DNA from: a virus
Taxonomy: Duplodnaviria > Caudoviricetes
Strand: one strand, 5' to 3'
Virus record (IMG/VR): IMGVR_UViG_3300017707_001960
Coordinates: 1 to 39,099 of that record
DNA: 39,099 nt
The first letter of the stretch is position 1, and every line of letters begins with the position of its first letter. Shown here in pieces: positions 1 to 38,983 of this stretch. The notes under the pieces were generated by a model that made no database searches, had not been told where the DNA came from, and saw only the letters and a list, made by a program, of their open reading frames with translations. Made by a program: the position numbers and the translations under genes.

Positions 1-123
1 GTTCTCATTCCTTCGGACGCGCCTTGGCCTTCGTGAGTCGAGCCAATGCACCTTCCTGCGTGATCTTGATGGGCGTGCGAATCTCTCGTTCCGCTTTGTC
101 CACCCATGAGGCAGATACCTCCA
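1..123. repeat. Terminal direct repeat (copy 1), most likely circular assembly overlap
   Basis: 1-123 is identical to 38977-39099. Confidence 0.95.
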
Positions 124-196
124 GCAAATCAGCGGCCTCGGACTGAGTGAGTCCGAGGCGCTGGCGATGGCTTTTGAGTTGTTCAGCGAAGTTCAT
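5..196 (-). CDS. XRE-family HTH protein (cassette B4)
   Basis: LKSHRQRLGLTQSEAADLLEVS is a typical HTH_3/XRE pattern; paralog of 37593-37847. Confidence 0.85.
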   Translation of the reverse strand: MNFAEQLKSHRQRLGLTQSEAADLLEVSASWVDKAEREIRTPIKITQEGALARLTKAKARPKE

Positions 197-198
197 GC

Positions 199-462
199 TT
201 AGCCGCGAAAATTGAAGTTGTGGTTTTTTTCGGCTTCGCGCTCGTCTGCTTTGAGGGTTGCGACTGCAACTCCTGCTTCAATTTCATAACCAAAGCGGGA
301 GCCAAGGTCTGAGCACGAGACTTCAAAAGCGACGAGCAATGCTTCTTGAGCAGCGGAGCGTGGCGCCTTTTGGAAGCGGTCTGGAATTTCAATCACTTCG
401 TCCGTTGGAAGGCTGGCGAGATACTGAGTAGCTGCTTTTGGTGAGGTAAGGTCGATTTTCAT
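199..462 (-). CDS. Small hypothetical protein upstream of HTH (cassette B4)
   Basis: 87-aa ORF ending 2 nt before the HTH start, preceded by an AT-rich promoter/operator region. Confidence 0.75.
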   Translation of the reverse strand: MKIDLTSPKAATQYLASLPTDEVIEIPDRFQKAPRSAAQEALLVAFEVSCSDLGSRFGYEIEAGVAVATLKADEREAEKNHNFNFRG

Positions 463-494
463 ATTTGTGTTTGGTTCGTTGTTTCTGACTACCC

Positions 495-550
495 CTTATA
501 TTCGCACAATGTCCGAATGATGCAAATACTATTTTCGGACTTTGTGCGAT
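495..550 (-). promoter_or_regulatory. Promoter with twin palindromic operators (cassette B4)
   Basis: TTCGCACAATGTCCGAA (501-517) and TTCGGACTTTGTGCGAT (534-550); TTGCAT -35-like hexamer between them on the minus strand. Confidence 0.65.
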
Positions 551-578
551 TTATTTTCGAGGGATTTAGACCACGGAA

Positions 579-640
579 TGAGAACCATGAGATGCAGCAC
601 AACGGGGCTAAGGCCCCGTTGCTGATCTCAAACGTTCTCC
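579..640 (+). other. attC site B4
   Basis: R'' TGAGAAC, CATGA, L'' GATGCAGC, hairpin AACGGGGC/GCCCCGTT, L' GCTGATC, TCAAAC, R' GTTCTCC; extra base in L''. Confidence 0.92.
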
Positions 641-879
641 GAAAGCTCGCACGCCACAGCGAGCACCATCACGCTTGCCATAGGCTGACCGTCCTTGCTG
701 GCTTTCTTCGCGATCTGGATGGCCGCGCTGAGGATTGAGGTGTTGCCCTCCTTGGCTACCCCTCGAATGATGGGGCTGATTTCGTTGATCTTCTGGGGCC
801 AGTTGTCCCCATGCAGTCGGCGCATAGTGTCGCGTGCATCGTAGAGCTTGGCAGTAGTGCGGATTAGTTTTTCGGTCAT
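628..879 (-). CDS. Hypothetical protein (cassette B5)
   Basis: ORF MTEKLIR...ELSENV fills the interval between attC B4 and B5; start could extend to 915. Confidence 0.7.
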   Translation of the reverse strand: MTEKLIRTTAKLYDARDTMRRLHGDNWPQKINEISPIIRGVAKEGNTSILSAAIQIAKKASKDGQPMASVMVLAVACELSENV

Positions 880-902
880 AAGGTTGTCGTGGGTAAATCG
901 TC

Positions 903-995
903 GGAGAACCATCACATGCAGGCAACGGCTCGTAGCTCATCTGTCATGTCCGCGGGCGTCCATCGCTCGCCGTCGCCTGATCCGGGACGTTCTCC
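903..995 (+). other. attC site B5
   Basis: R'' GGAGAAC, CATCA, L'' CATGCAGG ... L' CCTGATC, CGGGAC, R' GTTCTCC. Confidence 0.88.
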
Positions 996-1246
996 GAGAA
1001 AAGCAGATGCGGTGCGTAAGCCCGAAGCCACTTTTCAGCCTCGTCTTGAGCGTTCACTTCATCCCGCATGATTTCTGCCAGCAGTTCAGCGGCATTGTCA
1101 CGCTGCTCTGCGCATCGTGTGCCGTTGCGTTTCCCTTCTGCCACCCATCCTTCGAGTTCCGTGATTCGATCTCGTAGCCTTGCGGATGATTCGTGAGCAT
1201 CATGCAGCCTGCGTTGCAGTTCATTCAGTTCGGTGTTTTCGGCCAT
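944..1246 (-). CDS. Hypothetical coiled-coil protein (cassette B6)
   Basis: ORF MAENTELNELQRRL...; helical charged sequence; stop lies in the attC B5 loop. Confidence 0.7.
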   Translation of the reverse strand: MAENTELNELQRRLHDAHESSARLRDRITELEGWVAEGKRNGTRCAEQRDNAAELLAEIMRDEVNAQDEAEKWLRAYAPHLLFSENVPDQATASDGRPRT

Positions 1247-1268
1247 AGTATGTCTTGGGTAGTTCGCC

Positions 1269-1361
1269 GGAGAACCCGGCAGTGCTGGCAACGGCGGGGA
1301 GTTGCCTGTTTATGGTTTCGGAAGTGCAGCGCCCGCCGTCGCCAGACTTGAGGCGTTCGAC
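1269..1361 (+). other. attC site B6
   Basis: R'' GGAGAAC, CCGGC, L'' AGTGCTGG ... L' CCAGACT, TGAGGC, R' GTTCGAC. Confidence 0.9.
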
Positions 1362-1606
1362 AAAGCATCGCGGGCGATTCCCTTGAGGTATTCCGCTGAA
1401 TCCGAAAGCGCGACGGCCATTCCGCCGCTGATTCCATTGATGCTCCCCGTCTTCCGCTTCTGGTCTTCCTGCATCCACCAGACGGGGCGGGCGATGCGGT
1501 CTAGTGCCTCGCGGAGTCTTGAGTTTTCACGCTCCACATCCTCGAAGATGCCCAGCGGGAGCCATTCCCTTCCTTGGGCTTTGTATTTTTCAGTTCGTGG
1601 TGTCAT
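1310..1606 (-). CDS. Hypothetical protein (cassette B7)
   Basis: ORF MTPRTEKY...; stop lies in the attC B6 loop. Confidence 0.7.
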   Translation of the reverse strand: MTPRTEKYKAQGREWLPLGIFEDVERENSRLREALDRIARPVWWMQEDQKRKTGSINGISGGMAVALSDSAEYLKGIARDALSNASSLATAGAALPKP

Positions 1607-1615
1607 AAAAAAGAG

Positions 1616-1674
1616 GTCGAACAAGGCGGTGGACTCAACCGCGAGGACGCGGCGAGTCACCTTGTTCGTTCGAG
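1616..1674 (+). other. attC site B7 (59 bp)
   Basis: R'' GTCGAAC, AAGGC, L'' GGTGGACT, CCGCG/CGCGG stem, L' AGTCACC, TTGTTC, R' GTTCGAG. Confidence 0.92.
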
Positions 1675-2266: not shown

Positions 2267-2360
2267 GGGGATAAATAACTCTTTTTAGCACTATGCCAAA
2301 ATATTATTTGCATAATTAGCGATATGCGGGCATTTGTTCGGCGTTCTGCTAAACTATGCA
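2267..2360. promoter_or_regulatory. Divergent promoter/operator region (genetic switch)
   Basis: AT-rich gap with related motifs TAGCACTATGC, TGCATAATTAGC and GCTAAACTATGCA. Confidence 0.55.
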
Positions 2361-7563: not shown

Positions 7564-7830
7564 ATGACCGCCTCCGAAATCCAACACCGTTTTACCAACA
7601 TCGTGGTCGAGCAGTTATGCTGTGATCCTGACGATGTGGTGGCTGATGCGACCCTGCGCGATTTGGGCGCGGATTCGCTCGATGAGATCGAAATCATCAT
7701 TTTCTGCGAGGAGGATTTTGAGATCAACATCCCGGATGACGATGCGGCCAAACTCAAAACCGTGCTCGATTGCGTGAACTATCTGCATGCCGAGCTGAAC
7801 CGCAATCCGCTGCTCATGCGCAACTCATAA
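7564..7830 (+). CDS. acpP: Acyl carrier protein
   Basis: IVVEQL...DLGADSLDEIEIII..EEDFEINIPDDDAAKLKTV with the phosphopantetheine Ser in DSL. Confidence 0.88.
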   Translation: MTASEIQHRFTNIVVEQLCCDPDDVVADATLRDLGADSLDEIEIIIFCEEDFEINIPDDDAAKLKTVLDCVNYLHAELNRNPLLMRNS

Positions 7831-7863
7831 CCCGTAACCCATAACTCAAAACACATACCCACC

Positions 7864-8274: not shown

Positions 8275-8360
8275 ACGTCTCGGATCAGTGACCGCGAACC
8301 CATGATCACGAATACACGACAGCCAGCCCAGAGCGGTTCACTTCATCCGATTTGTTCGGT
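8270..8360 (-). other. attC site A2
   Basis: Minus strand: R'' ACCGAAC, L'' GATGAAGT, GAACCGC/GCGGTC stem, L' ACTGATC, CGAGAC, R' GTTCAAA. Confidence 0.8.
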
Positions 8361-8595
8361 TTGTGGCGAGCCTGTGTGGGGCGGAACGAAGCGCCACCCA
8401 GCAACAAAGTGCTTGTTTCACTTTAGCTGCATTTGCGCGGAATGCGGTCATGAGGCGTTCTGGCTGACAACTAGGAAAAACCCAGAAGGCCGCTGGGTCT
8501 GCTTCTCGCTTCAATGCGGCTGGGTAAGCACTGAATACACCAAGCCATTTCATCAACCGAACGTCAAAACGCAGCAACCCCGAAACGAAGCCTAA
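8302..8595 (+). CDS. Cys-rich (Zn-finger-like) hypothetical protein (cassette A2)
   Basis: CSVC, CAEC and C..LQC motifs; starts in the attC A2 loop and ends in the attC A1 loop. Confidence 0.65.
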   Translation: MITNTRQPAQSGSLHPICSVCGEPVWGGTKRHPATKCLFHFSCICAECGHEAFWLTTRKNPEGRWVCFSLQCGWVSTEYTKPFHQPNVKTQQPRNEA

Positions 8596-8652
8596 GATAT
8601 GAGCCTGCCTGATGCCAACTCGAAGTCACAAGACCATCAACCCTTGTTCGGC
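8556..8652 (-). other. attC site A1 (degenerate L'' arm)
   Basis: Minus strand: R'' GCCGAAC and R' GTTCGGT with L' GCTGCGT; the L'' position (TTGATGGT) does not pair. Confidence 0.6.
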
Positions 8653-8862
8653 ACGGGGGATGAGATGGAGTTTCGCCGCCAGTTTGCCATTCAATTCTTG
8701 GCGAGCTATGCGGCTACTAACTTCAACGACTTATGCGCCAATGGACGCCAAGGCTCCCTTGAGCGGCTACCTGTCGAAGATGCTGAATATCTCAGCGGCA
8801 CAGCATGGCGTCACTGGTGCTACACGATGCCGATGAAGCCGAACAAGAATTATCCAGACTGA
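8599..8862 (+). CDS. Hypothetical protein (cassette A1)
   Basis: 87-aa ORF bounded by GTTCGGC (8646) and GCCGAAC (8838); ends inside attI-A. Confidence 0.7.
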   Translation: MSLPDANSKSQDHQPLFGTGDEMEFRRQFAIQFLASYAATNFNDLCANGRQGSLERLPVEDAEYLSGTAWRHWCYTMPMKPNKNYPD

Positions 8863-8910
8863 CTTTTCCTCTCAACACCTGCAAAACCGGAAACATTCTA
8901 AAACTTATGA
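8838..8910 (-). other. attI-like site A plus intI leader
   Basis: Minus-strand GTCTGGATAATTCTT-GTTCGGC just upstream of intI, non-palindromic; its core matches R'' of the first cassette. Confidence 0.82.
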
Positions 8911-9911
8911 ACCTGCGTGATACACTGGAACAAGTTCGGCTGACGTGCCGCATGCGGCGGTTGTCGAGGCACACGGAGGAGTCTTATGCGGGGTGGATCG
9001 TGCGGTTTGCCAGGCATGTGGCACGCAGGGTGGAAGAGTCACGGGAGGAACGGGTGCGGAGTTTTCTGGAGCAGATGGCCCCGCGTTGCTCGGCATCGAC
9101 GCAAAACCAGGCTTTCAATGCCATCGTGTTCTTTTACCGCGATGTGCTGCGTCAGCCGTTGGGTGATCTGGGGAAATGGACCCGTGCGAAACGGCCGGCA
9201 CGGCTGCCGTCGTGGCTGAGTCCTGATGAGATGCGGCGTTTGTTTGATGCGATGACACCGGGGCCGCTACTCATGGCGCAGGTGGCGTATGGCAGCGGCG
9301 TGCGACTGGCGGAACTGCTGGCGCTGCGGGTGAAGGACATCGACCTGGATGCGTGCCTCATCACGGTGCGCGGCGGCAAGGGTGACAAGGACCGCGTGAC
9401 ATGCCTGCCTCGCTCGCTGGTGTTCACGCTGCGGGCGCATTTGGACCGCATTCGGCTGCTGTATGATGCCGACCGTCAGGCGGGCGCGATGCCGGTGTAT
9501 CTGCCGGACCAACTGGAGCGCAAATATCCGAACGCTGGCCGCGAGTGGCCGTGGTTCTGGCTGTGGCCTGCGGCAAATCAAAGCACCGATCCACGCAGCG
9601 GCATCGTGCGCAGGCATCACATTCATGAGGACACGCTGGGCAAGGCGCTGAAGAATGCCCGCCGTCGCTGCGGACTGAGCAAACGAGTGACGGCGCACAC
9701 GCTGCGTCATAGCTTTGCCACGAACTTGCTGGCGAACGGAGCCAGCATCACGCAGGTGCAGGAATTGCTCGGGCACAGCAGCGTGGAAACGACGCAGATT
9801 TACACGCACTGCATTCCGCAGTTTGCCCGCAGCATCACGAGTCCGATGGACACGCTGCCGCAACCTGCCAACGTGGTGCCGTTTGAAACGCACACAAGGA
9901 GGGCGGCGTGA
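8907..9911 (+). CDS. intI: Integron integrase (IntI family tyrosine recombinase)
   Basis: N-terminal LSRHTEESY..W, ASTQNQAFNAIVFFYR; catalytic R, K (GKGDKDR), HTLRH, LGH, TQIY; IntI-specific insertion VYLPDQLERKYPNAGREWPWFWLWP...DPRSGIVRRHH. Confidence 0.95.
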   Translation: MNLRDTLEQVRLTCRMRRLSRHTEESYAGWIVRFARHVARRVEESREERVRSFLEQMAPRCSASTQNQAFNAIVFFYRDVLRQPLGDLGKWTRAKRPARLPSWLSPDEMRRLFDAMTPGPLLMAQVAYGSGVRLAELLALRVKDIDLDACLITVRGGKGDKDRVTCLPRSLVFTLRAHLDRIRLLYDADRQAGAMPVYLPDQLERKYPNAGREWPWFWLWPAANQSTDPRSGIVRRHHIHEDTLGKALKNARRRCGLSKRVTAHTLRHSFATNLLANGASITQVQELLGHSSVETTQIYTHCIPQFARSITSPMDTLPQPANVVPFETHTRRAA

Positions 9912-11884
9912 TGGAGGTGGATGCGGACAGCCGGATGGTCATCGAAGCCTTGCATGCGGGGCAGGAGGCGCATCCGGTGATTGAGCCGTGGGCGCTGGAG
10001 GATCTGCTGGCGCTGGGCGAGGTGGGGGCGGCGGAGGCGGTGGCGGCGCGGGCGGATGCGATGCGTGAGATGGCCGAGCAGCCGCTCGATCACGGGTGGA
10101 TTCCGCAGGACTGGTGGTTGTTCCTGCTGGAGCTGTGTCGCAAACGGCTGGAGCATCCGGGGCGCGTGCTGGAGGTGCTGGTGAGCGGCGGCATCCGTGC
10201 GGGCAAAACGCATGTGGCGGCATCGCTCGCGGTGCAGCATTGGAAACACGCGAAGAAGGCGACGGTGTTCTGCATGTCCCGCCGCGAGGAGGATTCGCAG
10301 AACTTGCAGCAGAAGCCCATCGAGTCGTTCTTGCCGGTGGAGGCGCTGGGTGGCGCGGCGGGGAAGATCAAGCAGGACAAGCACCAGAAAGCGAAGTTCA
10401 GCGGCGGCAAGTTCACCGACAACCAGTTTTCCCGCTACCTCATCGTGACCGGCGCGGACGGGCAACGCTACACGGGCGGCGGCATGGTGCAGTTTCGTTT
10501 CTTCACGCAGGAACTTGAGTCATTTCGAGGCTATGCGTTGACGTTTGTGTGGAGCGATGAAGGCATTCCGGTGGATCATGTGAAGGCGCTGAAGGATCGT
10601 CTCGCATCGCGGGCCATCGAAACGCAATCGGACGAGCACCGGAAGCAAATGCTGGCGCTGCAAGGCTACCTGGAGCCGCTGGCGGAGGGACGGCCCGGAG
10701 CACGACGGCCGCATGGCGAGCTGATCGGGGCGCTGATGCACGGCGTGCATCTCATCACCTACACGCCCGAAGAGGGATTCACGCCGACCGTGCGCTACTT
10801 CATGCAGGGCGCGGTGAAGCCCGACAAGTTCAAGGTCATCGCGCCCGAGCTGGCAAACAAAGGCGGCTGCAAAGATCCGCGTGTGCCGAAGATTGCCTAT
10901 CCGCAGGAGCCGACGCGGCTGGTGTGCTACCTGCACACGGCAGCCAACAAGTATGTTAACGTGTATCCGCAGTTGTCGAAGGACTACGCGGGCGCGGACG
11001 AGAAGACGATCCGTATCAAACTCTACGGCGACGCCGAGGCGGCGAGCCGGACGGAGTTCGAGGCGGTGTGGCGGCCGGAGCAGCATCTTTGCGATTGGAA
11101 AGACCTGCCGCGTGACGGCACGCTGTATGAGATCATCGACGGCGCGGAGGCAAAACCGTTCTTCATCGGCTGGTTCATTGTTGATCCGATGGGTCGCTAC
11201 TGGCAGGCGCAGGAATGGCCGTGTGAGAGCATCGCCATTGACGACATGCTTCCCGGCCCGTGGGCGACACTCAGCGAGAAGGACCGCATCAATGGCGATG
11301 AAGGCCCGGCGCAGCGTTTGCGGCTGGGGTGGAACTTTGAGCAGTATGCCGATCTGGTGTGGCAGATGCGCCGCCGTTTGCTGGTGAAGATGGCGGAGAC
11401 GGGCGGGGAGTGGCAAGGCAAGACGGTGGCCGCGCCGCAGGCGCGGAATGACGAAACCAGAATGGCAAATGCCGAAGGCATGCTGTGTGCGGAGCCGTAT
11501 GAGACGTATGGTGATCCGCGCTGGAGTCAGTGGAAGTCTGGGGCGACGGGGGCGACGATTCAGCAGGAGTTTTTCGATTTGCCGAATGGATTCACCATCC
11601 TGGTGCCGGAAGGCGTGCGGGTGCAGGAGGGGCTGGCGCTGGTGCGGGATGCGCTGGCGACGACGATCCTGGTGCAGCCGAAGGTGCGGGTGAACCGCGA
11701 ATGCACCAACACGATCTTCGGCCTGCAAAACTTCACGATTCCCGATTTCAGCGAAAACACGAAGCGCAAGGACGAAGCCTGCAAAGACCCGGTGGATGTG
11801 TGGCGGTATTTCTGCCTCGCGGGGCCGCGTTATTTGGACCGCGAGCGGTTCAAAAGAAGGCCCGAGCAGGAGTTTGGGTATTGA
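9911..11884 (+). CDS. terL: Terminase large subunit
   Basis: Walker A GGIRAGKT, Walker B FVWSDE, TYTP coupling motif, C-terminal nuclease KDPVDVWRY; GTG at 9908 is an alternative start. Confidence 0.85.
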   Translation: MEVDADSRMVIEALHAGQEAHPVIEPWALEDLLALGEVGAAEAVAARADAMREMAEQPLDHGWIPQDWWLFLLELCRKRLEHPGRVLEVLVSGGIRAGKTHVAASLAVQHWKHAKKATVFCMSRREEDSQNLQQKPIESFLPVEALGGAAGKIKQDKHQKAKFSGGKFTDNQFSRYLIVTGADGQRYTGGGMVQFRFFTQELESFRGYALTFVWSDEGIPVDHVKALKDRLASRAIETQSDEHRKQMLALQGYLEPLAEGRPGARRPHGELIGALMHGVHLITYTPEEGFTPTVRYFMQGAVKPDKFKVIAPELANKGGCKDPRVPKIAYPQEPTRLVCYLHTAANKYVNVYPQLSKDYAGADEKTIRIKLYGDAEAASRTEFEAVWRPEQHLCDWKDLPRDGTLYEIIDGAEAKPFFIGWFIVDPMGRYWQAQEWPCESIAIDDMLPGPWATLSEKDRINGDEGPAQRLRLGWNFEQYADLVWQMRRRLLVKMAETGGEWQGKTVAAPQARNDETRMANAEGMLCAEPYETYGDPRWSQWKSGATGATIQQEFFDLPNGFTILVPEGVRVQEGLALVRDALATTILVQPKVRVNRECTNTIFGLQNFTIPDFSENTKRKDEACKDPVDVWRYFCLAGPRYLDRERFKRRPEQEFGY

Positions 11885-12419: not shown

Positions 12420-13034
12420 ATGAAAAACGACAAACCAATTTTTTACCCCATTATCGACAATGGCATGGGGCTTTCAGTGACAGGGTGGGCGGTGAGCATG
12501 CTGGGGGCTCTACGGGGAGAGAGCGTGTTTTGCCATCTCTCCACGCCTTACCCCGGCTATGCGATGGATGTGGCGACGAAGCAGTTTCTTGAGAGCGACT
12601 GTGACGAGATGGTGGTGATCGACACTGATCTCGTGTTCAAGCCGCAAGACCTGGAGCATCTGATGGAGCATGACGAGCCGCTGGTGTTCGGGATGTATGG
12701 CAAACGGAAGGTGAAGTTTGAAGCGCCGCTGGTGCCGCTGGCGGGGCAGGAGAACCCGGCGATGACGGAAGGCGTGCTGTGGGAGGTGGCAAAGACGGCG
12801 CGGGGATTCATGCGGGTGCATCGCTCCGTGTTCGAGAAGATGAAGCCGCATGTGACGCTGCTGCACGGCACGGAGTTTGGGGATCTGCATCGCTTCTGGC
12901 CGCCGCAGCCGGACGGCACGAGCGAGGATTTCGTTTTCTGCGCCCGCTGGCGCGAGCTGGGCGGGCGGGTGCTCATCGACAAGAGGATTTTTGTCGGGCA
13001 TGTCGGCCAGGCGCGGTTTCCGATTATGAAGTAA
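12420..13034 (+). CDS. GT-A fold glycosyltransferase-like protein
   Basis: VVIDTDLVF (DxD), GFMRVHRSVFEKM, SEDFVFCARW...GGRVLID...VGHVG. Confidence 0.75.
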   Translation: MKNDKPIFYPIIDNGMGLSVTGWAVSMLGALRGESVFCHLSTPYPGYAMDVATKQFLESDCDEMVVIDTDLVFKPQDLEHLMEHDEPLVFGMYGKRKVKFEAPLVPLAGQENPAMTEGVLWEVAKTARGFMRVHRSVFEKMKPHVTLLHGTEFGDLHRFWPPQPDGTSEDFVFCARWRELGGRVLIDKRIFVGHVGQARFPIMK

Positions 13035-24285: not shown

Positions 24286-24852
24286 ATGAACATCTTCCTC
24301 GATCCCGGACATGGTATGTCCAACCGCAAGCCCGGCATTTACGATCCCGGCGCCACGGTGCGCGTGGGCAAGGAGGACATCACCGAGGCTGGCATTGTCA
24401 TGACCTGGGCGAATGAACTCCGCGCCCTGCTCATGGCGCAGGGCCACACGGTCATACGCAGTCGCAAAGACATGCTCGATCCCTCTCCGCTCGGCGACCG
24501 CGTGGAGGACGCGCATCATTTCAAATGCGACGTGCTCGTGAGCCTGCACTGCAACGCGGCGAATGGCAAGGCGAACGGCACCGAGACGTTCTTTCGGGGC
24601 GAGCGCAACCGCACGCTGGCGCAGCGGTGCAATGATGCCGTGGTAAACGCACTGGGCACGCGCAACCGTGGCGTCAAGACCGAAAGCGCCAGCCAGCATG
24701 CCCGCCTCGCCGTGCTGGACTTCCCCCGCGCCGTGCTCATCGAGCTGGGCTTCATCGACCACCCCGGCGACCGCGCCCTGCTGCTCGATCCCAAGAAGAT
24801 GCTGCAAGCCTGTGACGCGCTCTGCGATGCCATCACCGGCACCACCTCTTAA
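24286..24852 (+). CDS. N-acetylmuramoyl-L-alanine amidase (Amidase_3) endolysin
   Basis: IFLDPGHG, E, VSLHCNA, GTETF, AVLIELGFID. Confidence 0.92.
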   Translation: MNIFLDPGHGMSNRKPGIYDPGATVRVGKEDITEAGIVMTWANELRALLMAQGHTVIRSRKDMLDPSPLGDRVEDAHHFKCDVLVSLHCNAANGKANGTETFFRGERNRTLAQRCNDAVVNALGTRNRGVKTESASQHARLAVLDFPRAVLIELGFIDHPGDRALLLDPKKMLQACDALCDAITGTTS

Positions 24853-24889
24853 CTCATCACCTCTAACTCCTAACTTCTAACCCATCCCC

Positions 24890-25960
24890 ATGCCCCGCGA
24901 CCCGCGAGAAACCACCCCCTTTGAAACTGTGGCGACCGTCAAGCCGGGCGAAGTCGCCGCTTTGCTGTGGGTGCCGGAGAATCAGATCCGCGGGGATTTC
25001 TCGCTCACGGTGGGCACGACGCTGCAAGCGGCGCTGCCGCTGGTGTCGAAGGGTGACGGCTTGGGCCGAGGCTTTGAAAACTACGTCTTCACCGACAACG
25101 GCCCCGTCGATGCGGGATGGCATGGGTTCTACTTTGCGCGACCGTTCAGCAGCGGGGAGAAGACGACGGCCTTCCGCACGGTGACGGAGATTCGGGGCGG
25201 CATCTACTGGCCGCCCGTCATGGCCGGGCTAAACGTGCGCAACTTCAAAGCCTACGACGCGGACGGGGTGGAATACACGGCAGATGTGATTTGGGACTTC
25301 AACCTGCGGGACGCCTACGACGGCCCCACCAAAGTGGTGATCGAATACTTCGCCAGCCATGAGCCGCACACCATTGCCACGCCGACGACGATGCAGCCGG
25401 AAGGCGGCACGTTCTTTTATGGCGTGGGGCAGGTGAGCATCCCTCGCTGCCTGCATCCTTCGCTGGAACTCATTTACAGCACCGGCAGCGCCAGCACGCG
25501 CTACCCGTTGCAGACGTTTGTGAAGGCATTCCCGAATACCAATCTGACAAGCTGGCCGGCCACGCTGGTGATTGACGACGGGGAGAAATTCGACAACGGC
25601 CTTTACATCCGGCGCAAGGTCACGGCGTATCGTCCTGGCGACTACGCCACCGCGCCGATCATCTCGACGCCGACGAAGGCCAGCATCGGCAGCACGACGG
25701 TGACGCTGGGCGGCAATGCCAGCAACGACGGCGGCAGCACGATCACCGAGCGCGGCGTGGTGGTGAGCGCCACCGCGACGAATGCCGATCCCGTCATTGG
25801 CGGCACCGGCGTGACGAAAACCACCACCACCGGCACCACAGGTGTGTTCACCGTGGCCGTCACCGGACTCACCAGCGCCACCGGCTACACGTTCAAAGCC
25901 TATGCGACCAACGCACGCGGCACCAGCTACACCGCACTCGACACCTTCACCACCAGCTAA
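24890..25960 (+). CDS. Virion protein with C-terminal fibronectin type III-like domain
   Basis: GGNASNDGGSTITERGVV...TGLTSATGYTFKAYATNARGTSY. Confidence 0.7.
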   Translation: MPRDPRETTPFETVATVKPGEVAALLWVPENQIRGDFSLTVGTTLQAALPLVSKGDGLGRGFENYVFTDNGPVDAGWHGFYFARPFSSGEKTTAFRTVTEIRGGIYWPPVMAGLNVRNFKAYDADGVEYTADVIWDFNLRDAYDGPTKVVIEYFASHEPHTIATPTTMQPEGGTFFYGVGQVSIPRCLHPSLELIYSTGSASTRYPLQTFVKAFPNTNLTSWPATLVIDDGEKFDNGLYIRRKVTAYRPGDYATAPIISTPTKASIGSTTVTLGGNASNDGGSTITERGVVVSATATNADPVIGGTGVTKTTTTGTTGVFTVAVTGLTSATGYTFKAYATNARGTSYTALDTFTTS

Positions 25961-26012
25961 CGCATAACTCTTAACTCATCACCCCTAACTCCTAACCCCT
26001 AACCCATCACCC

Positions 26013-27995: not shown

Positions 27996-30900
27996 ATGCC
28001 ACGCTACGAACTCACCTCCGCCCACACGGGCAAGACCTACGTCATCGAAGGCGAGGGCCAGCCGACCGACGACGACATGATCGACATCGGCCGGCAGCTC
28101 GATGAGCAGACGGCGCGGCAGGCGGGGATTGATCCCGCGCTGCTTCAGCAGACACCTGCGGGCACGGTGGCAAACACGGTGCGGAACATCGGGCCGGAGT
28201 TTGTCGATATGGCCGTGGGCGGACTGGCGAAGCTGAACGAGACGCTGGGCCGCTCCCCGCTGGGCATCGTCTCCCCGCTGGCGCTGGCAAACCGGGCCAC
28301 GGAAATGGTGACGGGCATCAACCCGCTGGCACGCACCGCCGAGGCCACGCAGGTGATCCGCGAAACGGGCGAGGACATGCGCCCCGTGAACCCGTTCAAC
28401 CCGACTGCCCGGACCATCGGCAGCGCGATCAATCAAGTCGGCGGCATGGTGGCGACGGGCGGACTTGCTACCGCCGCAGGCATGGCCCCGGCCACCGCGA
28501 TGACAGCCATCCCTGGCGGCATCGGCTTCGCCGCAGGCGCAGGCCAGGGCATCGACACCGCCCGTCAAATGGGCATCACCGACCCGACCGCGCAGGCGGG
28601 CATGGGCATGGCCTTTGGCGGTGTGGAGATGGCGACCGAGCGACTGGGCGGTATCGGCGGCGACGTCGTGAACCGTTTCATCCGGCCGCAATCCCTGCTG
28701 GGCCGTGCCGCGCTGAATGTGGCGAGCGAATCCGTAGAAGAAAATGTGGCGGGCCGTGCGCAGGATGCAGTCACGGTAGGGGCAGGTCAATTCGTGTCGG
28801 ACCCCAACCGCCCCGGCTTCACCCGCAGCGGCTTCGAGTTGCCGAGCCTGAACCCGCTGAATCCGCAGACCCTTGAGCGCATGAAGCAGGAGGCCATCGG
28901 CGGCGCTGCTGGCGGCGTCGTGTTCAGCGGACTGCAAGCCCTTTCCCCTTCTGCCAGCGTAACCAAGGAATCCGGTCCGACTGCCGATCAAACCGTGCAG
29001 CAAGCCGCCGGTGCGGGTTTGAGTCCCGCCGCTGGCTCCCCTTCCCCTTCCCCGCTCGGCGGCATCGCCCGCAGGGCCGGAACGGTGGATGTGGCGCCGC
29101 TGGTGCCGGGGCTGGAGGAGGACACGGGGGCGCTGACGATGGCGGAGGTGGCGGGGCTGGAGCCAGTTTCAAGTTCCACGTTTCAAGTTTCAAGTCCGGA
29201 GACCGGCAGCCAGCGGCAGGCGATTTTGACGAATGTGCCGGACGCGGTGACGCAGCCGGACAACGGACCCGCGCAAACCATCACTGGCTCCAATGTGCAA
29301 ACGGGCACTGAAATGCCAGTGCCGCCCCCGACTGCGGACGCAGGTGCCGGGGCGGGCGCAACCGTGCCGGGTGCGCAGGGGGTAGGACAAGCAATGTCCG
29401 ACACCGCGCCCGACTCGCAGCTTGACGGACTGCGCACGCAGGAGGTGCCGGTGGGCAGTCTGCGTTTGTCCAAGGACGTGCCGCAGTTCAAGAGCGACGC
29501 GGACGAGGAAACCGGTGTGGTGGAACCGCTGGCGGGCAAGTATCAACGGCTCGGCACGGGGCCGATCCTTGTCTGGGAACGGCTGGACGGCCGCCGCGAG
29601 GTCATTAGCGGGCGGCATCGTTTTGATCTTGCCAAACGCACCGGAGAGCAGACAATCCCGGCGCAGGTCGTGCGCGAGGCGGACGGCTTCACCGTTCAAA
29701 TGGCGGTGACGGCGGACGCAGAACTTAACATTCGAGACGGTCATGGAAAAACCAAGGACTTTGCCAACTACTTCCGCGCCAGCGGCACCACGGACACCGA
29801 AGCAGAAAGCCGAGGCTTACTCGCACGCGCTGCGGGCAAGGCTGGGTGGAGCATCGGCACTCAGGGAAGCCAGGAACTCTTTGATCTACACCAGAACGGC
29901 CGGCTGACGGATGCGCAGGCCGCTGCGGTGGCCCGCACGGCTCCCGGCAACGAGGCGCTGCAACGCGCTGGCATCGCCGCGCTGAACCGTGGCACGCCCA
30001 TTGATGTCACGGTCAATCTGATGCGGGCGCTGGAGCTGCAAACCGGCCCGGCTCCGACCGCCGACCAGCTCGACCTCTTTGGCGCGGATGATTCGATGAT
30101 GCTGCGCATGGAGGAGCAGGCGAAGAAGGCGACCGAGATCCAGCGCGGACTGAAGGAGCAGGTGGCCGCCGTGCAAGGCGCGGCCAAACGCCCGGAGCAG
30201 GCCCGCAAGCTGGGCGTGAATGTGAAAGACCCGGACGGCGTGCGCAAGCGGGTGGAAGAACTCAAGGCGCTGCTCTACCGCTGGGAATCCTGGCCGCTGC
30301 ATGCGGACCTGCGAGCGCAAGTCACAGGCGAAACGCAGGCGCCTGCGATGCAACTGGAAAGCGTGAGCGCGGAACAACTGGCCGAGGAGCAACGCCAGCG
30401 CGAGCAACGCGCCCGACTCGATGCCGGCCAGGCCGCGCCCCTCACCGGCACCGCAGGCGAATACGGCACGCCTGACATGCTCGACAATACGGCTGGAGAC
30501 ATGGCGCTGTTCAATCAATCGCCGACTCTTCTCCTTCCCGCTCGGAACTTCACGGGCGGGCTGGCGCAGCAGCTCGAAGGGAGCGCGGCCACTCTTGGCC
30601 GCAATGCAGCGCGAAGCACCAGGAACCCAGAACCCATCACCCCTAACTCTTCACTTTCGTCTGCCTACGCCCAAGCCTCACGCGGCAGCAGCAGCGCGAT
30701 GGTGCCGATCTCCCGCGTCTATGAGCAGGTGAAGGCGCAGAACCCGGCGCTGACGGTGCCGCAGTTTCTGGCCGAGGTGCAGGCGGCGGACCAGCGCGGC
30801 GAGGTGCTGCTGGAGCCGTTCGATTCCCCGCAGGGCTTGCAAGCGGCGGGCGAGTTCACCGTGCGCAATGCCAGCGGGGTGCCGTCGATCAACATGGCGG

Positions 30901-34993: not shown

Positions 34994-35269
34994 TGTGGCA
35001 AAACGTGTGACATGGCGTGTTTTCAGGTGACGCAATGCGTTTATCTTCAAAGTATTGCATCAAATGGCACATCGGTCTTAAAATCCGCTGCCGTGAAAAC
35101 GGCTTGAGGGTTCGAGTCCCTTCATCGGCATCGTGATTTGAGGCGCTGCGTAGGGGGAATGGGGTAGGGTGCGGGGTGTGGAGGGTAGTTAAGAGGCTGG
35201 CGTGATGTGGTATATTGCGGCATATGTTGCTTGCGTGGTGTGACATGGAGTGTTACAAAGTGTGACATG
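34994..35269. repeat. Integrase arm-type repeats flanking attP
   Basis: TGTGGCA (34994), GTGTGACATGG (35005, 35238), GTGTTACA (35250), GTGTGACATG (35260). Confidence 0.65.
35077..35130 (+). other. attP core: 3' half of tRNA-Leu(TAA)
   Basis: CTTAAAA anticodon loop, TCCGC, variable arm GCCGT-GAAA-ACGGC, T arm GAGGG-TTCGAGT-CCCTT, CATCGGC-A; no 5' half; integrase adjacent. Confidence 0.85.
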
Positions 35270-35491
35270 AAGCTGAAACCTTTTTGGACTTTGGAGATGC
35301 AAGCGAGGCTGGATGGCCTGCGGGCATGGAATCTATGGGCGGCGCAAGGCGGGCTGCGGGGCAAGCCGTCGCGGCTGGCTTTGCGGGCCAGGGAGATCGC
35401 GGAGGCGCGGAGGGCGCTGGCGGAGGTGTATGCGGCGCTGGACCGGGTGTTTCCGCTGGGTTTGACTTGGGTGAAGGAGGGTGCAGTATGA
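35267..35491 (+). CDS. Small hypothetical protein
   Basis: ATGA overlap with the integrase gene. Confidence 0.4.
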   Translation: MKLKPFWTLEMQARLDGLRAWNLWAAQGGLRGKPSRLALRAREIAEARRALAEVYAALDRVFPLGLTWVKEGAV

Positions 35492-36648
35492 GTGCGCTGA
35501 AGCGCAAGATCGCGGGGGTGAAGGTGCGGTTTTACAAGCGCACGGCGGGATCAAATCTGAGCATGGATTTTGAGATCGACGGGGAGCGGTTTCAGGAATC
35601 GACGGGCTGGCCGCACATCGCGGACGCGGAGCGGGTGGCGTTGGATCGCATCAACAAGATCAACGAGGCTCGGCGTGCGTTTGGAGCGGGGGCACTGGTG
35701 CGTGGATCTATGGCGACGGTGGGCGAGGTGTGCGAGGCGCTGCGTGTAGGCGACAAGGTGATGGATGAGAAGACGCTGACGCGATACATGGCGGCGCTGG
35801 TGTGTCTGGCGCGGGTGGTGGATGAGGCGCGGCCTCTCGATGTGACGCTGGACAAGGTGATTGATCGCGTGACGCTGGAGCGGTATGTGAGTCTGGCGCA
35901 GGGCAATCAGGGGCGCGGCGTGAACTGGCACGATCAACTGCCGATGAACGGCGCGATCAATTCGACGCTGCGGAATGCGGCGAGTTTGTTCCAAGAGAGG
36001 CTGGTGGGAAGGCACTTGAGCGCGCTGCGGCTGCCGCCGCTGGAGCCGCTGCGGAAGTTCACGGCGCTGCCGACTCTGCCGACTCATTTTATCCCGTGGC
36101 CGACTGAGAATGTGACGGCGATGGACGCGGCAGCGCGGGCGCTGAAGACGGAGCAGCCGGAGCTGTGGCTGTGCCATGTGATGCTGCGCAGGCTGGGGCT
36201 GCGTGATGCGGAGCTGCTGGGCGCGCGGGCGGCCTGGGTGCAGTGGGGGCAGGATGGCAAGGCGTGGTTGGATCTGCGCACACGCACGGCGGAGGGTGGC
36301 GAGCCTGCTTTCCGACTGCTGAAGGGTGGCAAGCCGCGCCGTCTGGCGCTGGATGCGGAGATTCAAGAGGCTTTGCGGGGGCGCCCGGGCTGGCTGATCG
36401 GTGACGGCTGGGGCGAGTCAAAACGCTACGATTTTGTGTATCGTGAGCATTGCGACTGGTTGCGGCCGTTTGTGCCGGAGGGGCGCATGAAGGTGAATCA
36501 CGAGCTGCGGAAGCTGGCGGCGAGCCGGGTTTACACGCAGCACGGGATCGCCGCGGCGGCGTATTTCCTGGGCGACTCGGTGACGACGACGGAGCGCTAT
36601 TATGCGGCTTGGACGGCGGAGGCTCCGGTGGTGGCGTGGGAGGTGTGA
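35488..36648 (+). CDS. int: Phage tyrosine integrase
   Basis: N-terminal arm-binding-like domain, LGLRDAEL, HELRK, YFLGDS..TTERYY; next to attP. Confidence 0.82.
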   Translation: MSALKRKIAGVKVRFYKRTAGSNLSMDFEIDGERFQESTGWPHIADAERVALDRINKINEARRAFGAGALVRGSMATVGEVCEALRVGDKVMDEKTLTRYMAALVCLARVVDEARPLDVTLDKVIDRVTLERYVSLAQGNQGRGVNWHDQLPMNGAINSTLRNAASLFQERLVGRHLSALRLPPLEPLRKFTALPTLPTHFIPWPTENVTAMDAAARALKTEQPELWLCHVMLRRLGLRDAELLGARAAWVQWGQDGKAWLDLRTRTAEGGEPAFRLLKGGKPRRLALDAEIQEALRGRPGWLIGDGWGESKRYDFVYREHCDWLRPFVPEGRMKVNHELRKLAASRVYTQHGIAAAAYFLGDSVTTTERYYAAWTAEAPVVAWEV

Positions 36649-36676: not shown

Positions 36677-37234
36677 TTAGTTCTTGGTCGCACTAGCAAG
36701 GCCGGGCACGAGTTCGGCCTCGATGACGGTGGCGCTTTGCTGTTCCAAGGCGGCGCGGCGTTCGGCGGCGGCTTTGCGGGCGGCTTCGAGTCGGTCTTGA
36801 GCGGAGACGGTGACGACGGCTTTAATTTCCGTGGGCATGCCGTGCAGGCTGCGCTCGATGTCGTGGGCCATTTTGGTGCTCATGGACACGGCCATGAGGT
36901 CGGACTTTTTCGCGTCGGGTATCAACTCGACCATCTTTTCCGTGCCTTGGAGGACGGCGAGCTGCGCATTTTTGGCGGCGAGTTCGGCGAGTTGTTCAAC
37001 GGTGAACTCGGTTCGCATGAGGGCGGCGATGGTTTGCCGGGACTTTCCCACGCCTAGCTTGCCGAGTTCGCGTTCGAGTGCGGAGATGTTGGTGATGCCG
37101 TGCTCGCGGATCATCTCGACGCAAATGGCGTAGCTTTCGGGATCGCTGCTTTTCCAATTCTTCGCCGTGTGCTCGCGCCACAAGTCGATGGGATGCGGAG
37201 GCAGATCGGCGAGGGGAAGCGGCGGGGTGGTCAT
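36677..37234 (-). CDS. HTH/helical protein, terminase small subunit-like
   Basis: HTH-like NISALERELG...SRQTIAAL, helical core, G.PTEI motif, C-terminal VIEAELV; assignment is inference. Confidence 0.45.
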   Translation of the reverse strand: MTTPPLPLADLPPHPIDLWREHTAKNWKSSDPESYAICVEMIREHGITNISALERELGKLGVGKSRQTIAALMRTEFTVEQLAELAAKNAQLAVLQGTEKMVELIPDAKKSDLMAVSMSTKMAHDIERSLHGMPTEIKAVVTVSAQDRLEAARKAAAERRAALEQQSATVIEAELVPGLASATKN

Positions 37235-37302
37235 AGGTTTTAGAATGTTTCCGGTTTTGCGGGTGCTACCCAGAAATATTGTCTGGATAGTTCTTGTTAG
37301 CT
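37231..37302 (+). other. attI-like site B (second copy of attI plus intI leader)
   Basis: Reverse complement matches 8838-8910 in two blocks; core GTTAGCT at 37296 matches R'' at 37521. Confidence 0.82.
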
Positions 37303-37589
37303 GACTTCCAAAGGCGCGCCCACATCGACGGGCGGCGGAGTTTCTGGTTCTCAAATTCTAGTCGGTCGGCGCGGGCTTTTTCAGCGCGATACCATACACA
37401 CAGCCATGTGCGCCAACGGTTAATTGTGTATTGACTGCTCTGCCATTTATTAATCCGCCGTTCAAGCTTCTGACAGCGACGATTCAGGCGTCGGTTCGTC
37501 TCGCGGGCGATAGCCAAGTCAGCTAACAAGGCGCTGGACTCCGACAGAATGGGCTTCTGTGTCGTATCGATGGGGTGATTCTGTTCCAT
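37266..37589 (-). CDS. Hypothetical coiled-coil protein (cassette B1)
   Basis: Starts in the attC B1 loop and ends in attI-B (ANKNYPD). Confidence 0.7.
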   Translation of the reverse strand: MEQNHPIDTTQKPILSESSALLADLAIARETNRRLNRRCQKLERRINKWQSSQYTINRWRTWLCVWYRAEKARADRLEFENQKLRRPSMWARLWKSANKNYPDNISG

Positions 37590-37650
37590 ATTCTATTGTT
37601 CCATGGCAGGTTTCCGCCGCCCATTCTGCGGGTCAGCTTGATCGTTCGTC
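37521..37650 (+). other. attC site B1 (130 bp)
   Basis: R'' AGCTAAC, AAGGC, L'' GCTGGACT, CAGAATGGGC/GCCCATTCTG stem, L' GGTCAGC, TTGATC, R' GTTCGTC. Confidence 0.88.
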
Positions 37651-37847
37651 CCCTGAGTGCGTCGCTTGGCCTTCGCGAGCCTCGCAAGCGCCCCTTCCTG
37701 CGTTAGGACGTGCGGAAGCGTGCCTTTCTCCCACTGCCACACGGCACGCGGGGAAACGTCCAGGAATGCGGCAAGCTCGGCCTGTGTCAGGCCGAGCCGC
37801 TCGCGTTGGTCTTTGAGTTGTTCAGGGAAGCTCACAGGATTTTGCAT
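37593..37847 (-). CDS. XRE-family HTH protein (cassette B2)
   Basis: LKDQRERLGLTQAELAAFLDVSPRAVWQWEKG. Confidence 0.88.
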   Translation of the reverse strand: MQNPVSFPEQLKDQRERLGLTQAELAAFLDVSPRAVWQWEKGTLPHVLTQEGALARLAKAKRRTQGTNDQADPQNGRRKPAMEQ

Positions 37848-38014
37848 CCGATTTCGTTTCCGGTGACGAAGCTTGAGACGTATTCCACGTCTCCGTCTTC
37901 CGTCGTGACCTCATAGGAGGTTCCTACTTTGTCGCTGATTTGGCCGAGGACCGAGCGGCCCATTCCAAAGTTGATCTTGACTGCGGTGCCGTTTTTGATG
38001 TCGAGTGTTTTCAT
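37832..38014 (-). CDS. Small beta-rich hypothetical protein upstream of HTH (cassette B2)
   Basis: 60-aa ORF overlapping the HTH start; preceded by a promoter/operator region. Confidence 0.7.
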   Translation of the reverse strand: MKTLDIKNGTAVKINFGMGRSVLGQISDKVGTSYEVTTEDGDVEYVSSFVTGNEIGCKIL

Positions 38015-38039
38015 GGTGTGTTCGGTTTGGTTACGTTTC

Positions 38040-38093
38040 TAGTTTCGCACATTATGCGAACAGAACAAGTAATATTTTCGCATATTGTGCGAT
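38040..38093 (-). promoter_or_regulatory. Promoter with twin palindromic operators (cassette B2)
   Basis: TTCGCACATTATGCGAA (38044-38060) and TTCGCATATTGTGCGAT (38077-38093); same 33-bp offset as in B4. Confidence 0.7.
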
Positions 38094-38315
38094 TTATTTC
38101 TCAGAGCACTCTGAGCATAGAGGAGCATTCCCGAACGCCCCGCCTCGGCTGTCCATGCCGTCGCGGCGCATCCAGTTTGATGCTGGTAGGAACTTCCCGC
38201 AGCCGATACCAGAGCCAACCATGCCCGTCGTGCTCATACCGCACTGCGTAAGCCATTCGTGACGGGGACGAACCATGCGCTGCTGACCAACTGGCGGGGC
38301 GGATGAGTCTTTCAT
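38094..38315 (-). CDS. Possible Cys-containing small protein (cassette B2)
   Basis: ATG in the attC B2 loop overlaps the upstream stop (ATGA); CG..GCGKF..CSEC. Confidence 0.4.
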   Translation of the reverse strand: MKDSSAPPVGQQRMVRPRHEWLTQCGMSTTGMVGSGIGCGKFLPASNWMRRDGMDSRGGAFGNAPLCSECSEK

Positions 38316-38366
38316 GGTGGCGATGCTGGTAGCGCCCCGCCAGTGGCAGAGCTTGAAGCGTTCTCC
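38267..38366 (+). other. attC site B2
   Basis: R'' GACGAAC, CATGC, L'' GCTGCTGA, ACTGGCGGGGCG/CGCCCCGCCAGT stem, L' GCAGAGC, R' GTTCTCC. Confidence 0.88.
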
Positions 38367-38551
38367 CCCTTGCGGGAGCGCTTCGGACTGCGGAGTGCAA
38401 GAAGCTCTAGCGCCATCGCTGCCTCTTGCGTGATAGTGCCGCCTTGCTCGCGCTGGTTGATTGCTTTGCGGCTTACTCCCAGCGCAACGGCCAGAGCGGC
38501 CTGGGTCATCCCCAGCCGCTCCCGTGTGGCTTTGTATTCGTCGGAGGTCAT
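38312..38551 (-). CDS. XRE-family HTH protein (cassette B3)
   Basis: MTSDEYKATRERLGMTQAALAVALGVSRKAINQREQG. Confidence 0.85.
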   Translation of the reverse strand: MTSDEYKATRERLGMTQAALAVALGVSRKAINQREQGGTITQEAAMALELLALRSPKRSRKGENASSSATGGALPASPP

Positions 38552-38799
38552 GCTACTGCTTTTTCCCATCCGCGAAAGTTGCCGGACTCAAACTCATTGA
38601 TCATGTAAAGCTTCGTTCCGTTGCCGCGAGTCGCTACGATTTCGCGCTTGATCTTGTTTTCCTTCATCACCCGAGCGGTGTTTTCACGACCGCGAGCGGC
38701 GACTTGCTCTGGAGTGAAGGATTGCAGGACATTGAATGTGAGACCGTTGATTTCGATCTTTTCGATTGCGATGTGAGGGGCGATTGATGTTGTGTTCAT
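38548..38799 (-). CDS. Small hypothetical protein upstream of HTH (cassette B3)
   Basis: 83-aa ORF with ATGA overlap to the HTH gene. Confidence 0.72.
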   Translation of the reverse strand: MNTTSIAPHIAIEKIEINGLTFNVLQSFTPEQVAARGRENTARVMKENKIKREIVATRGNGTKLYMINEFESGNFRGWEKAVA

Positions 38800-38807
38800 G
38801 GTGAGAG

Positions 38808-38859
38808 ATAGTAACCCAAGGTTACAGCCAGTCAAACGCTAAATGTAACTTTTCGTAAC
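38808..38859 (-). promoter_or_regulatory. Sigma70-like promoter with twin operators (cassette B3)
   Basis: Minus strand TTGACT-N16-TACTAT; GTAACCCAAGGTTAC (38811-38825) in the spacer and GTAACTTTTCGTAAC (38845-38859). Confidence 0.7.
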
Positions 38860-38884
38860 TTTATTCAACGTCTGGCAGAACGGG

Positions 38885-38983
38885 GGAGAACAAGCCCACT
38901 GGAGCTAACCTGATGGGCGAGGTTGCACCATCGGCTAGCCACGCTTTGCCCGCCCATCAGGTAGCTCACTGGAGATGTTCTCA
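38885..38983 (+). other. attC site B3
   Basis: R'' GGAGAAC, L'' ACTGGAGC, ACCTGATGGGCG/CGCCCATCAGGT stem, L' GCTCACT, GGAGAT, R' GTTCTCA. Confidence 0.85.

What the first reader, a model, noticed from the sequence alone, without database searches (positions are those of the whole stretch)
37231..37302. Duplicated attI: one integrase, two attI sites in inverted orientation
Seen: the reverse complement of 37231-37302 (CTAACAAGAACTATCCAGAC...CACCCGCAAAACCGGAAACATTCTAAAACCTATGA) matches 8838-8910 (CGAACAAGAATTATCCAGAC...CACCTGCAAAACCGGAAACATTCTAAAACTTATGA). Spacing is the same, but the middle ~17 bp have diverged, which suggests selection on two blocks. In copy B the ATG that would start intI starts a terS-like gene. 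Inference: both early arms end in a capture site. Recombination between the inverted arrays could swap cassettes, or invert the ~10.5-kb early region relative to intI-terL and the terS-like gene.
Basis: partly seen in the sequence, partly recalled or inferred. Interest (0 to 1): 0.88.

Follow-up and report, generated by a model that had tools for sequence, protein, structure and literature searches.

The report
Phage integron with two docking sites
This freshwater phage has one gene-capturing integron enzyme but two docking sites, each at the end of a row of swappable gene cassettes, and the second site, whose neighbouring cassette differs between related phages, is likely served by the same enzyme from a distance, a layout that recurs in other phages.

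Summary
Observation confirmed with small corrections: the blocks match 17/18 and 33/35 nt, and the middles are 16 and 15 nt, not equal. The window is a complete circular, probably temperate phage. Its integrase is an intact integron IntI (TIGR02249, 355 bits against a 265 cut-off).

Copy A heads a 2-cassette attC array and copy B a 7-cassette array on the opposite strand. Copy B is conserved in four related contigs (49/52 nt), with three different first cassettes joined exactly at G|TT. The window's first B cassette starts with a 12-nt complement of its own attC end, the footprint of circle integration. All cassette ORFs point toward attI.

Extra attI sites occur in 11 of 20 distinct family phages and in 2 of 18 distant IntI phages.

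The inversion idea has no support. DnaB and TerL are co-oriented in 20 of 20 contigs, and run contigs cross both sites unbroken (a weak negative, since contigs drop rare variants).

Best reading: one IntI serves satellite attI docks in trans. No biochemical test has been done. New variant of a known kind.

The parts
8842..8906 (-). attI-A, next to intI; top strand is minus; crossover G|TT at 8844|8843
   Evidence: Conserved in L002-L004, L014 and L075, with different sequence left of the AAC
8907..9911 (+). intI, integron integrase, 334 aa; R-K-H-R-H-Y residues and the IntI insertion are present
   Evidence: TIGR02249 355 bits over cut-off 265; full-length match to VchIntIA 2a3v, E 3e-65; residues invariant or nearly so in 16 phage IntIs
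37235..37298 (+). attI-B, orphan site with no adjacent intI; top strand is plus; crossover G|TT at 37296|37297
   Evidence: 49/52 identical to the orphan site of G001-G004 and 41/53 to attI-A; three different first cassettes; 12-nt junction complement
36677..37234 (-). terS-like gene whose ATG stands where the intI ATG stands in copy A
   Evidence: Homologs lie directly before terL in relatives; no family hit
37297..37644 (+). cassette B1 (ORF 37266-37589 on minus; attC 37521-37650)
   Evidence: Start/end complement 12 nt; bottom-strand fold z -1.75
37645..38360 (+). cassette B2 (small ORF plus HTH gene on minus; attC 38267-38366)
   Evidence: Complement 10 nt; z -2.2; a variant in runs X2/X3 ends at 37642
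38361..38983 (+). cassette B3 (small ORF plus HTH gene on minus; attC 38885-38983, running into the terminal overlap)
   Evidence: Complement 10 nt; z -6.3; 81% and 73% matches to a G006 cassette
2..634 (+). cassette B4 (small ORF plus HTH gene on minus; attC 579-640)
   Evidence: Complement 11 nt; z -7.7
635..989 (+). cassette B5 (attC 903-995)
   Evidence: Complement 9 nt; z -1.7
990..1355 (+). cassette B6 (ORF 944-1246 on minus; attC 1269-1361)
   Evidence: Complement 8 nt; whole cassette 90.5% identical to one in the intI array of G006
1356..1668 (+). cassette B7 (ORF 1310-1606 on minus; attC 1616-1674), innermost cassette of the left array
   Evidence: Complement 7 nt; z -5.6
8562..8843 (-). 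cassette A1 (ORF 8599-8862 on plus); its attC (about 8556-8652) does not fold
   Evidence: Complement 7 nt; z +0.37; possible collapsed duplication in the assembly
8276..8561 (-). cassette A2 (ORF 8302-8595 on plus; attC 8270-8360, abutting the stop of the SSB-like gene)
   Evidence: Complement 8 nt; scan hit; z -1.5
2267..2355 (.). AT-rich gap where gene direction diverges; likely the early control region for both arms
   Evidence: Read from the sequence; the sigma-70 scan found nothing above chance
9908..11884 (+). terL, overlapping the intI stop codon
   Evidence: phrog_2, E 9.5e-8
35488..36648 (+). second tyrosine recombinase converging on terS; likely the lysogeny integrase, not part of the integron
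   Evidence: Weak phrog_216 hit, E 2.6e-4; a tRNA-like piece lies upstream at about 35070-35131 (read by eye)

Best explanation
Copy B is a second, integrase-less attI that heads its own attC cassette array and is likely used in trans by the phage's single IntI, so that new gene cassettes would be added at the far end of each of the two divergent early arms. SHOWN: intact IntI; two attI sites facing inward; attC arrays on opposite strands; cassettes that begin with the complement of their own attC end; first cassettes that differ at G|TT between relatives; ORFs pointing toward attI. INFERRED: cassettes excise as circles (attC x attC) and reinsert at either site (attI x attC). They are read from the phage's divergent early promoters rather than from a Pc, with the transcript running on through attI into intI-terL (right arm) or terS (left arm). 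Copy B is probably the left-arm attI whose own intI was lost. The second conserved block is an accessory part of the site, not a leader for the next gene. attI x attI inversion is at most a rare side reaction.
For: (1) IntI passes TIGR02249 and aligns full length to VchIntIA. (2) B is conserved in G001-G004 although a terminator, not a gene, follows it there; the sequence changes exactly at the AAC, giving three first cassettes. (3) G003 and G002 share an identical 1364-nt intI-less B flank (L076 vs G002) but only the innermost cassette of the B array, so the array most simply changed after intI was lost. (4) Junction test: 9 of 10 orphan sites and 12 of 15 intI-linked sites have at least 7 nt of complement to their own first attC, against 13 of 240 cross pairs for orphans; 0 of 20000 permutations reach the observed sum. 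(5) All 7 B cassettes pass the test with 7-12 nt. (6) The layout recurs: extra sites in 11 of 20 distinct family phages, 0 control hits in 1.53 Mb of reversed sequence, and near-identical copies in distant phages G062 (33/34, inverted, on the other early arm) and G016 (38/38, after terL). (7) L086-L088 have attI-intI-terS at the left-arm position, and L083/L085 carry an internally deleted intI there. G006 has intI before the same kind of terminator that follows B in G002. (8) IntI works in trans in standard assays (PMC9892861 methods).
Against: There is no binding or recombination assay. Array differences at B could also come from homologous recombination between phages. No cassette circle or skipped cassette was seen in four runs (contigs only). 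No whole cassette is shared between A and B arrays within the window's clade. Four of 25 junctions failed the automatic test, among them the window's own A site. Several attC folds are only weakly better than shuffles (z -1.5 to -2.3) and one does not fold. The 14-core library was built from these same contigs, so some hits are there by construction. G021-G024 share 50-100% of their sequence and are not independent. B shares about 14 extra bases with A up to the ATG that the B sites of G001-G004 lack, which the simple loss story does not explain. Promoters were not located.
Confidence: 0.83

Rival explanations
1. Copy B is a relic. It captured its cassettes while it still had its own intI and is now idle; differences between relatives come from homologous recombination.
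For: Left-arm attI-intI-terS exists in L086-L088 and decays in L083/L085 and G021. No excision or insertion isoform was seen in runs. G023's extra left site has lost its AAC.
Against: The core and R/L boxes are intact and 49/52 conserved while the flanks are unrelated. First cassettes differ on an identical intI-less flank. Orphan sites pass the junction test at least as often as intI-linked ones. G016, G039 and G062 hold near-identical copies with cassettes and no second intI.
Confidence: 0.1
2. The pair is an invertible switch: IntI recombines attI-A with attI-B and flips the 10.5-kb early region relative to intI-terL and terS.
For: IntI1 inverts DNA between inverted attI1 sites (72-fold over background; PMC4792948 passages). 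By analogy with the attI1 cut positions (section 8), the 6-nt overlap is identical in A and B (my inference). intI and terS occur on either arm across the family.
Against: DnaB is co-oriented with terL in 20 of 20 contigs. Single contigs span site A in X1 and X2 and site B in X1, X2 and X3, with no strand-change joint. The same paper puts attI x attI 3-4 orders of magnitude below attC reactions. Extra sites also occur in direct orientation (G005, G016, G039), where no inversion is possible. The intI/terS placements cannot come from one inversion at attI.
Confidence: 0.05
3. The repeat is a duplicated promoter or translation leader that co-regulates intI and terS, not a recombination site.
For: In the window the match runs exactly to the ATG of both genes.
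Against: In G001-G004, G021/G022 (second left site), G038 and G039 the site is followed by a terminator-like or non-coding stretch. It always abuts a cassette at G|TT. The promoter scan found nothing there.
Confidence: 0.02

Closest known systems
Classical integrons (IntI, attI, attC cassettes; class 1, VchIntIA)
   Same: IntI with its insertion and catalytic residues; attI beside a divergent intI; G|TT crossover; attC hairpins with R''/L''/L'/R' layout; accessory sequence beyond the attI core (DR1/DR2 in attI1, PMC8946536 passage)
   Different: One IntI has two attI sites (three in some relatives), each with its own array. All cassette ORFs face toward attI, with start codons often inside attC. 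No Pc was found. The arrays sit inside the phage's own early operons, upstream of terminase genes.
Phage-borne integrons and CALINs of Qi et al. 2023 (PMC9892861), above all Shewanella prophage M16-3
   Same: A phage carrying intI, attI and attC. M16-3 has a complete integron plus a CALIN, each starting with an attI: a direct precedent for one integrase and two attI sites.
   Different: Those cases are single, mostly captured bacterial integron pieces, and M16-3 is cryptic. Here the layout is family-wide, tied to the two divergent arms, variable between close relatives, and repeated in unrelated phages.
Delta-attI-type cassettes of class 1/2 integrons (PMC12901181, abstract only)
   Same: Extra or shortened attI copies act as IntI substrates; G006 has a shortened attI before terL
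   Different: There the extra sites lie inside one array. Here they are separate docks up to 10 kb away, often inverted.
Phage DNA inversion systems such as Mu Gin/gix and P1 Cin/cix (recalled, not from a call)
   Same: Two inverted recombination sites around a genome segment
   Different: No serine invertase, no mixed orientation observed, and the sites show insertion footprints.

Membership tests
Integron | Tyrosine recombinase with the IntI-specific insertion and catalytic residues | tested here: met
   TIGR02249 355 > 265; alignment to 2a3v
Integron | attI beside intI with a G|TT insertion point | tested here: met
   Relatives diverge exactly at the AAC
Integron | Cassettes bounded by attC hairpins whose R'' complements the cassette start | tested here: met
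   8 of 9 window attC fold (z -1.5 to -7.7), 1 does not
Integron | Pc promoter driving ORFs that point away from attI | tested here: not met
   ORFs point toward attI: antisense ORF cover exceeds sense in 21 of 23 arrays, and PHROG matches lie on the antisense ORFs (sense ORFs were not scanned). No Pc found.
Integron | IntI-catalysed excision and insertion | not testable with these tools
   Only comparative footprints
attI site (copy B) | Core matching the cognate attI, with intact R and L boxes | tested here: met
   17/18 in block 1; alignment of 21 sites
attI site (copy B) | Variable cassettes joined at G|TT | tested here: met
   Three first cassettes with complements of 12, 8 and 10 nt
attI site (copy B) | Bound and recombined by this IntI | not testable with these tools
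   Needs EMSA or a recombination assay
Invertible segment (phase-variation switch) | Both orientations present in populations or relatives | tested here: not met
   20 of 20 contigs in one orientation; no strand-change joints in 4 runs, contigs only
Terminase small subunit (gene after copy B) | Family match or position before terL | tested here: inconclusive
   Position met in relatives; no profile hit; weak Atlas lead

The most novel reading that the evidence does not exclude
Many temperate phages have domesticated a true IntI into a genome-wide multi-dock system. attI copies are seeded at operon joints (ends of both early arms, after terS, after terL), so that one enzyme edits several accessory-gene slots from a cassette pool shared with the host, and even the intI and terS genes change docks. 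This would be an enzymatic cause for part of the small-gene mosaicism of lambdoid early regions.
Probability: 0.4. Interest if true: 0.82.

Novelty: new variant of a known kind. Interest (0 to 1): 0.67.

Why it matters
The integron is usually drawn as one intI, one attI and one array read from Pc, and phage integrons are reported as rare captured fragments (3 complete ones in 10,705 genomes; PMC9892861). One scan of viral contigs gave 262 IntI-like matches. In this family the integron is part of the phage's own architecture, with satellite attI docks and reversed cassettes.

If right, arrays that pipelines label as integrase-less CALINs can be live arrays with their own dock. Phages would also have a site-specific route to gain genes such as DNA methyltransferases (4 of 81 array ORFs scanned, plus PAPS-reductase-like and RNA ligase matches).

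The sites and the enzyme are short and can be tested directly in standard E. coli assays.

Tried and rejected
Inversion isoforms: none in orientation tables (15 of 15, then 20 of 20) or in laid contigs. The loose ends at 37231/37265 in X1 are the copy-A contig aligning to B, not an isoform. Contigs drop rare variants, and X1 may be the window's source. No RNA holder was listed, so expression is untested.

Whole cassette shared between A and B in the window's clade: an early note said so. One search showed that only the 112-nt attC is shared, and I withdrew it.

G001's right array was first read across the ends of a linear contig. That join was dropped and the two pieces treated apart.

Cumulative GC skew showed no origin between the arms. 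The idea that both arrays put the attC bottom strand on the lagging template therefore stays untested.

The sigma-70 scan found nothing above chance. ARAGORN found no tRNA, and the tRNA-like piece had no convincing match in the Verrucomicrobiaceae MAG (best E 0.03).

The own-copy scan is conservative. It missed the window's own B site and found no passing intI-linked attI in 10 of 28 distant contigs.

Literature searches found no description of a family-wide two-arm attI layout. The library lacks most subscription papers, and I did not read the supplements of PMC9892861, which list more phage arrays.

Our own index held nothing on this genome or on look-alike stretches; the look-up by IntI sequence gave two unrelated chromosomal integrons.

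Full report
OBSERVATION. The window is a complete circular phage record with a 123-nt terminal overlap. The two sites are a true inverted repeat: block 1 matches 17/18 nt and block 2 33/35 nt, with middles of 16 and 15 nt. Chance is excluded by BLAST E 3.3e-13 within the genome and by 0 of 200 shuffles. The crossover points lie 10.5 kb apart across the join.

THE ENZYME. ORF 8907-9911 scores 355 bits on TIGR02249 against a cut-off of 265. It aligns over its length to VchIntIA (2a3v, E 3e-65), including the integron-specific insertion. The catalytic residues are invariant or nearly so in 16 phage IntIs. A second tyrosine recombinase at 35488-36648, with a tRNA-like piece upstream, is the likely lysogeny integrase (inference).

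BOTH SITES HEAD ARRAYS. A hairpin scan found five attC-like sites at score 11 or more, against one hit in ten shuffles. Chaining cassette starts to ends gave 7 cassettes after copy B (top strand plus) and 2 after copy A (top strand minus). Every B cassette begins with 7-12 nt complementary to its own attC end, as expected if it entered as a circle; the first has 12. Eight of nine attC bottom strands fold, three strongly (z -5.6 to -7.7) and five weakly (z -1.5 to -2.3); A1's does not. ORFs point toward attI. Antisense ORF cover exceeds sense in 21 of 23 arrays, and PHROG matches among 81 antisense ORFs include HTH regulators, 4 DNA methyltransferases, 2 PAPS-reductase-like and 2 RNA ligase proteins. 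Gene direction diverges near 2267-2355, so each early arm ends in an attI.

COPY B IN RELATIVES. Four contigs with 96% identical IntI (G001-G004; two lineages) keep both sites inverted. Copy B is 49/52 identical to theirs and 41/53 to copy A. There it is followed by a terminator-like hairpin, not a gene, and the sequence changes exactly at the AAC, giving three first cassettes. G003 and G002 have an identical 1364-nt flank without intI but share only the innermost B cassette. In a test with attC ends called independently of the junction, 9 of 10 orphan sites and 12 of 15 intI-linked sites reached 7 nt or more. Only 13 of 240 cross pairs did so for orphans, and 0 of 20000 permutations reached the observed sum. 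The four failures were G000_A, G002_A, G003_A and G022_L2.

A RECURRING LAYOUT. A library scan of 25 family contigs found two or more sites in 14; G028 and G029, with one site each, are one phage. After merging near-identical contigs, 11 of 20 phages have extra sites, and 10 of these have an inverted pair. One of the ten (G006) rests on a shortened site. G021, G022/G024 and G039 have three sites. Seven phages showed one site and two showed none; many are fragments. The library came from these contigs, so the junction test is the independent check; reversed sequence gave 0 hits in 1.53 Mb. Among 28 distant IntI contigs, 18 had a passing attI and 2 of these had a copy: G062 (33/34, inverted, at the end of its other early arm) and G016 (38/38, direct, after terL). 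One cassette lies, GTT to GTT, in the right array of G021 and the left array of G022 at 98% identity, so the arms can draw on one pool. No whole cassette was shared between A and B arrays in the window's own clade.

ORIGIN OF COPY B (inferred). L086-L088 have attI-intI-terS facing the second recombinase, which is the window's left arm with intI still in place. L083/L085 carry an internally deleted intI there. G006 has intI before the terminator type that follows B in G002. B is therefore most simply an attI that outlived its intI. The extra 14 bases shared with A up to the ATG are unexplained and may reflect a later exchange.

INVERSION. IntI1 can invert DNA between inverted attI1 sites (72-fold over background). 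The authors put attI x attI 3-4 orders below attC reactions, and inverted attC x attC was unproductive (PMC4792948; passages and section 8 read). By analogy the 6-nt overlap is the same in A and B, so inversion is not barred. But DnaB and terL are co-oriented in 20 of 20 contigs, and unbroken contigs cross site A in two runs and site B in three, with no strand-change joint. This is a weak negative for rare events and a fair one against a regular switch.

MECHANISM. Most likely (0.83) IntI, made at the end of the right early transcript, excises cassettes as circles and inserts them at either attI. The cassettes would be read from the divergent early promoters, newest last, and the transcript would continue into intI-terL or terS. 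The recombination, transcription and in-trans steps are inferred; the anatomy and the variation are shown. Rivals: idle relic (0.10), invertible switch (0.05), duplicated leader (0.02).

WHAT IS KNOWN. It is an integron by enzyme, attI and attC, but it fails the Pc-and-forward-ORF feature. PMC9892861 (parts 1-3 of 7 read) found 3 complete integrons in 10,705 phage genomes. [quoted passage not shown] PMC12901181 (abstract) shows extra attI copies inside arrays are substrates. PMC9668308 (one passage) notes that CALINs can be used in trans. PMC8946536 and PMC8876359 were seen as passages only. Eight searches found no account of two-arm phage integrons; supplements were not read. Earlier scan notes describe backward-facing or multi-array phage systems, mostly run by Xer-type enzymes; they are unchecked leads, and this case differs in having a true IntI. 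The likely host group is Verrucomicrobiaceae (73% IntI and shared cassettes in L113; inference).

VERDICT. Real feature; second attI well supported; inversion unsupported. New variant of a known kind, interest 0.67.

Noticed in passing
window 8344-8653: The attC of cassette A1 does not fold (z +0.37). In run X1 no exact contig is listed over 8374-8565, depth doubles, and a joint goes back from 8642 to 8344. The assembly may have collapsed a duplicated or variant cassette.
   Followed up: partly
window 1-560, 37640-38100 and 38312-38850: Cassettes B2, B3 and B4 are look-alike two-gene units (small ORF plus HTH gene). B2 and B4 share three direct repeats, including an AT-rich leader (D7, D8, D20). 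Possibly self-regulated or toxin-antitoxin-like units.
   Followed up: no
window 35070-35131: Looks like the 3' part of a tRNA-Leu (my reading, no tool hit) just upstream of the second tyrosine recombinase; likely attP. G002 has a different tRNA-like piece and a different recombinase at this place.
   Followed up: partly
G001-G004, G006, G008, G009, G021-G024, G029: intI and terS occur in all four left/right arm combinations while DnaB and terL stay fixed.
   Followed up: partly
cassette ORFs of all arrays: Many ORFs start inside the attC read backwards, so about 25 N-terminal residues come from attC; PHROG matches begin near residue 25-30.
   Followed up: partly
L113 6369-10855: A Verrucomicrobiaceae MAG has a 73% identical IntI with a 7-attC array and cassettes 81-83% like those of G001's B array. 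Points to the host group and a shared cassette pool.
   Followed up: partly
G006 5080-5420: A cassette between terS and terL joined to a shortened attI that seems to use the AAC of the L box.
   Followed up: no
G009 about 12460-12520: An attI-like stretch directly after the SSB stop and before terL with no cassette; possibly an empty dock. The library scan did not flag it.
   Followed up: no
G033 11517; G032 421-1740: G033 (98% complete) has an attI with a cassette but no IntI match. G032 has five attC between SSB and terS with no recognised attI.
   Followed up: no
G001 contig ends: The two ends of this linear contig carry different versions of the right array, suggesting array variants within one assembly.
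   Followed up: no
window 7817-7860, 24844-24889, 25952-26011, 30624-30654: Short 7-nt TAAC-containing tandem repeats at gene boundaries (D2, D4).
   Followed up: no
window 7565-7830: Acyl carrier protein gene between DnaB and the SSB-like gene.
   Followed up: no
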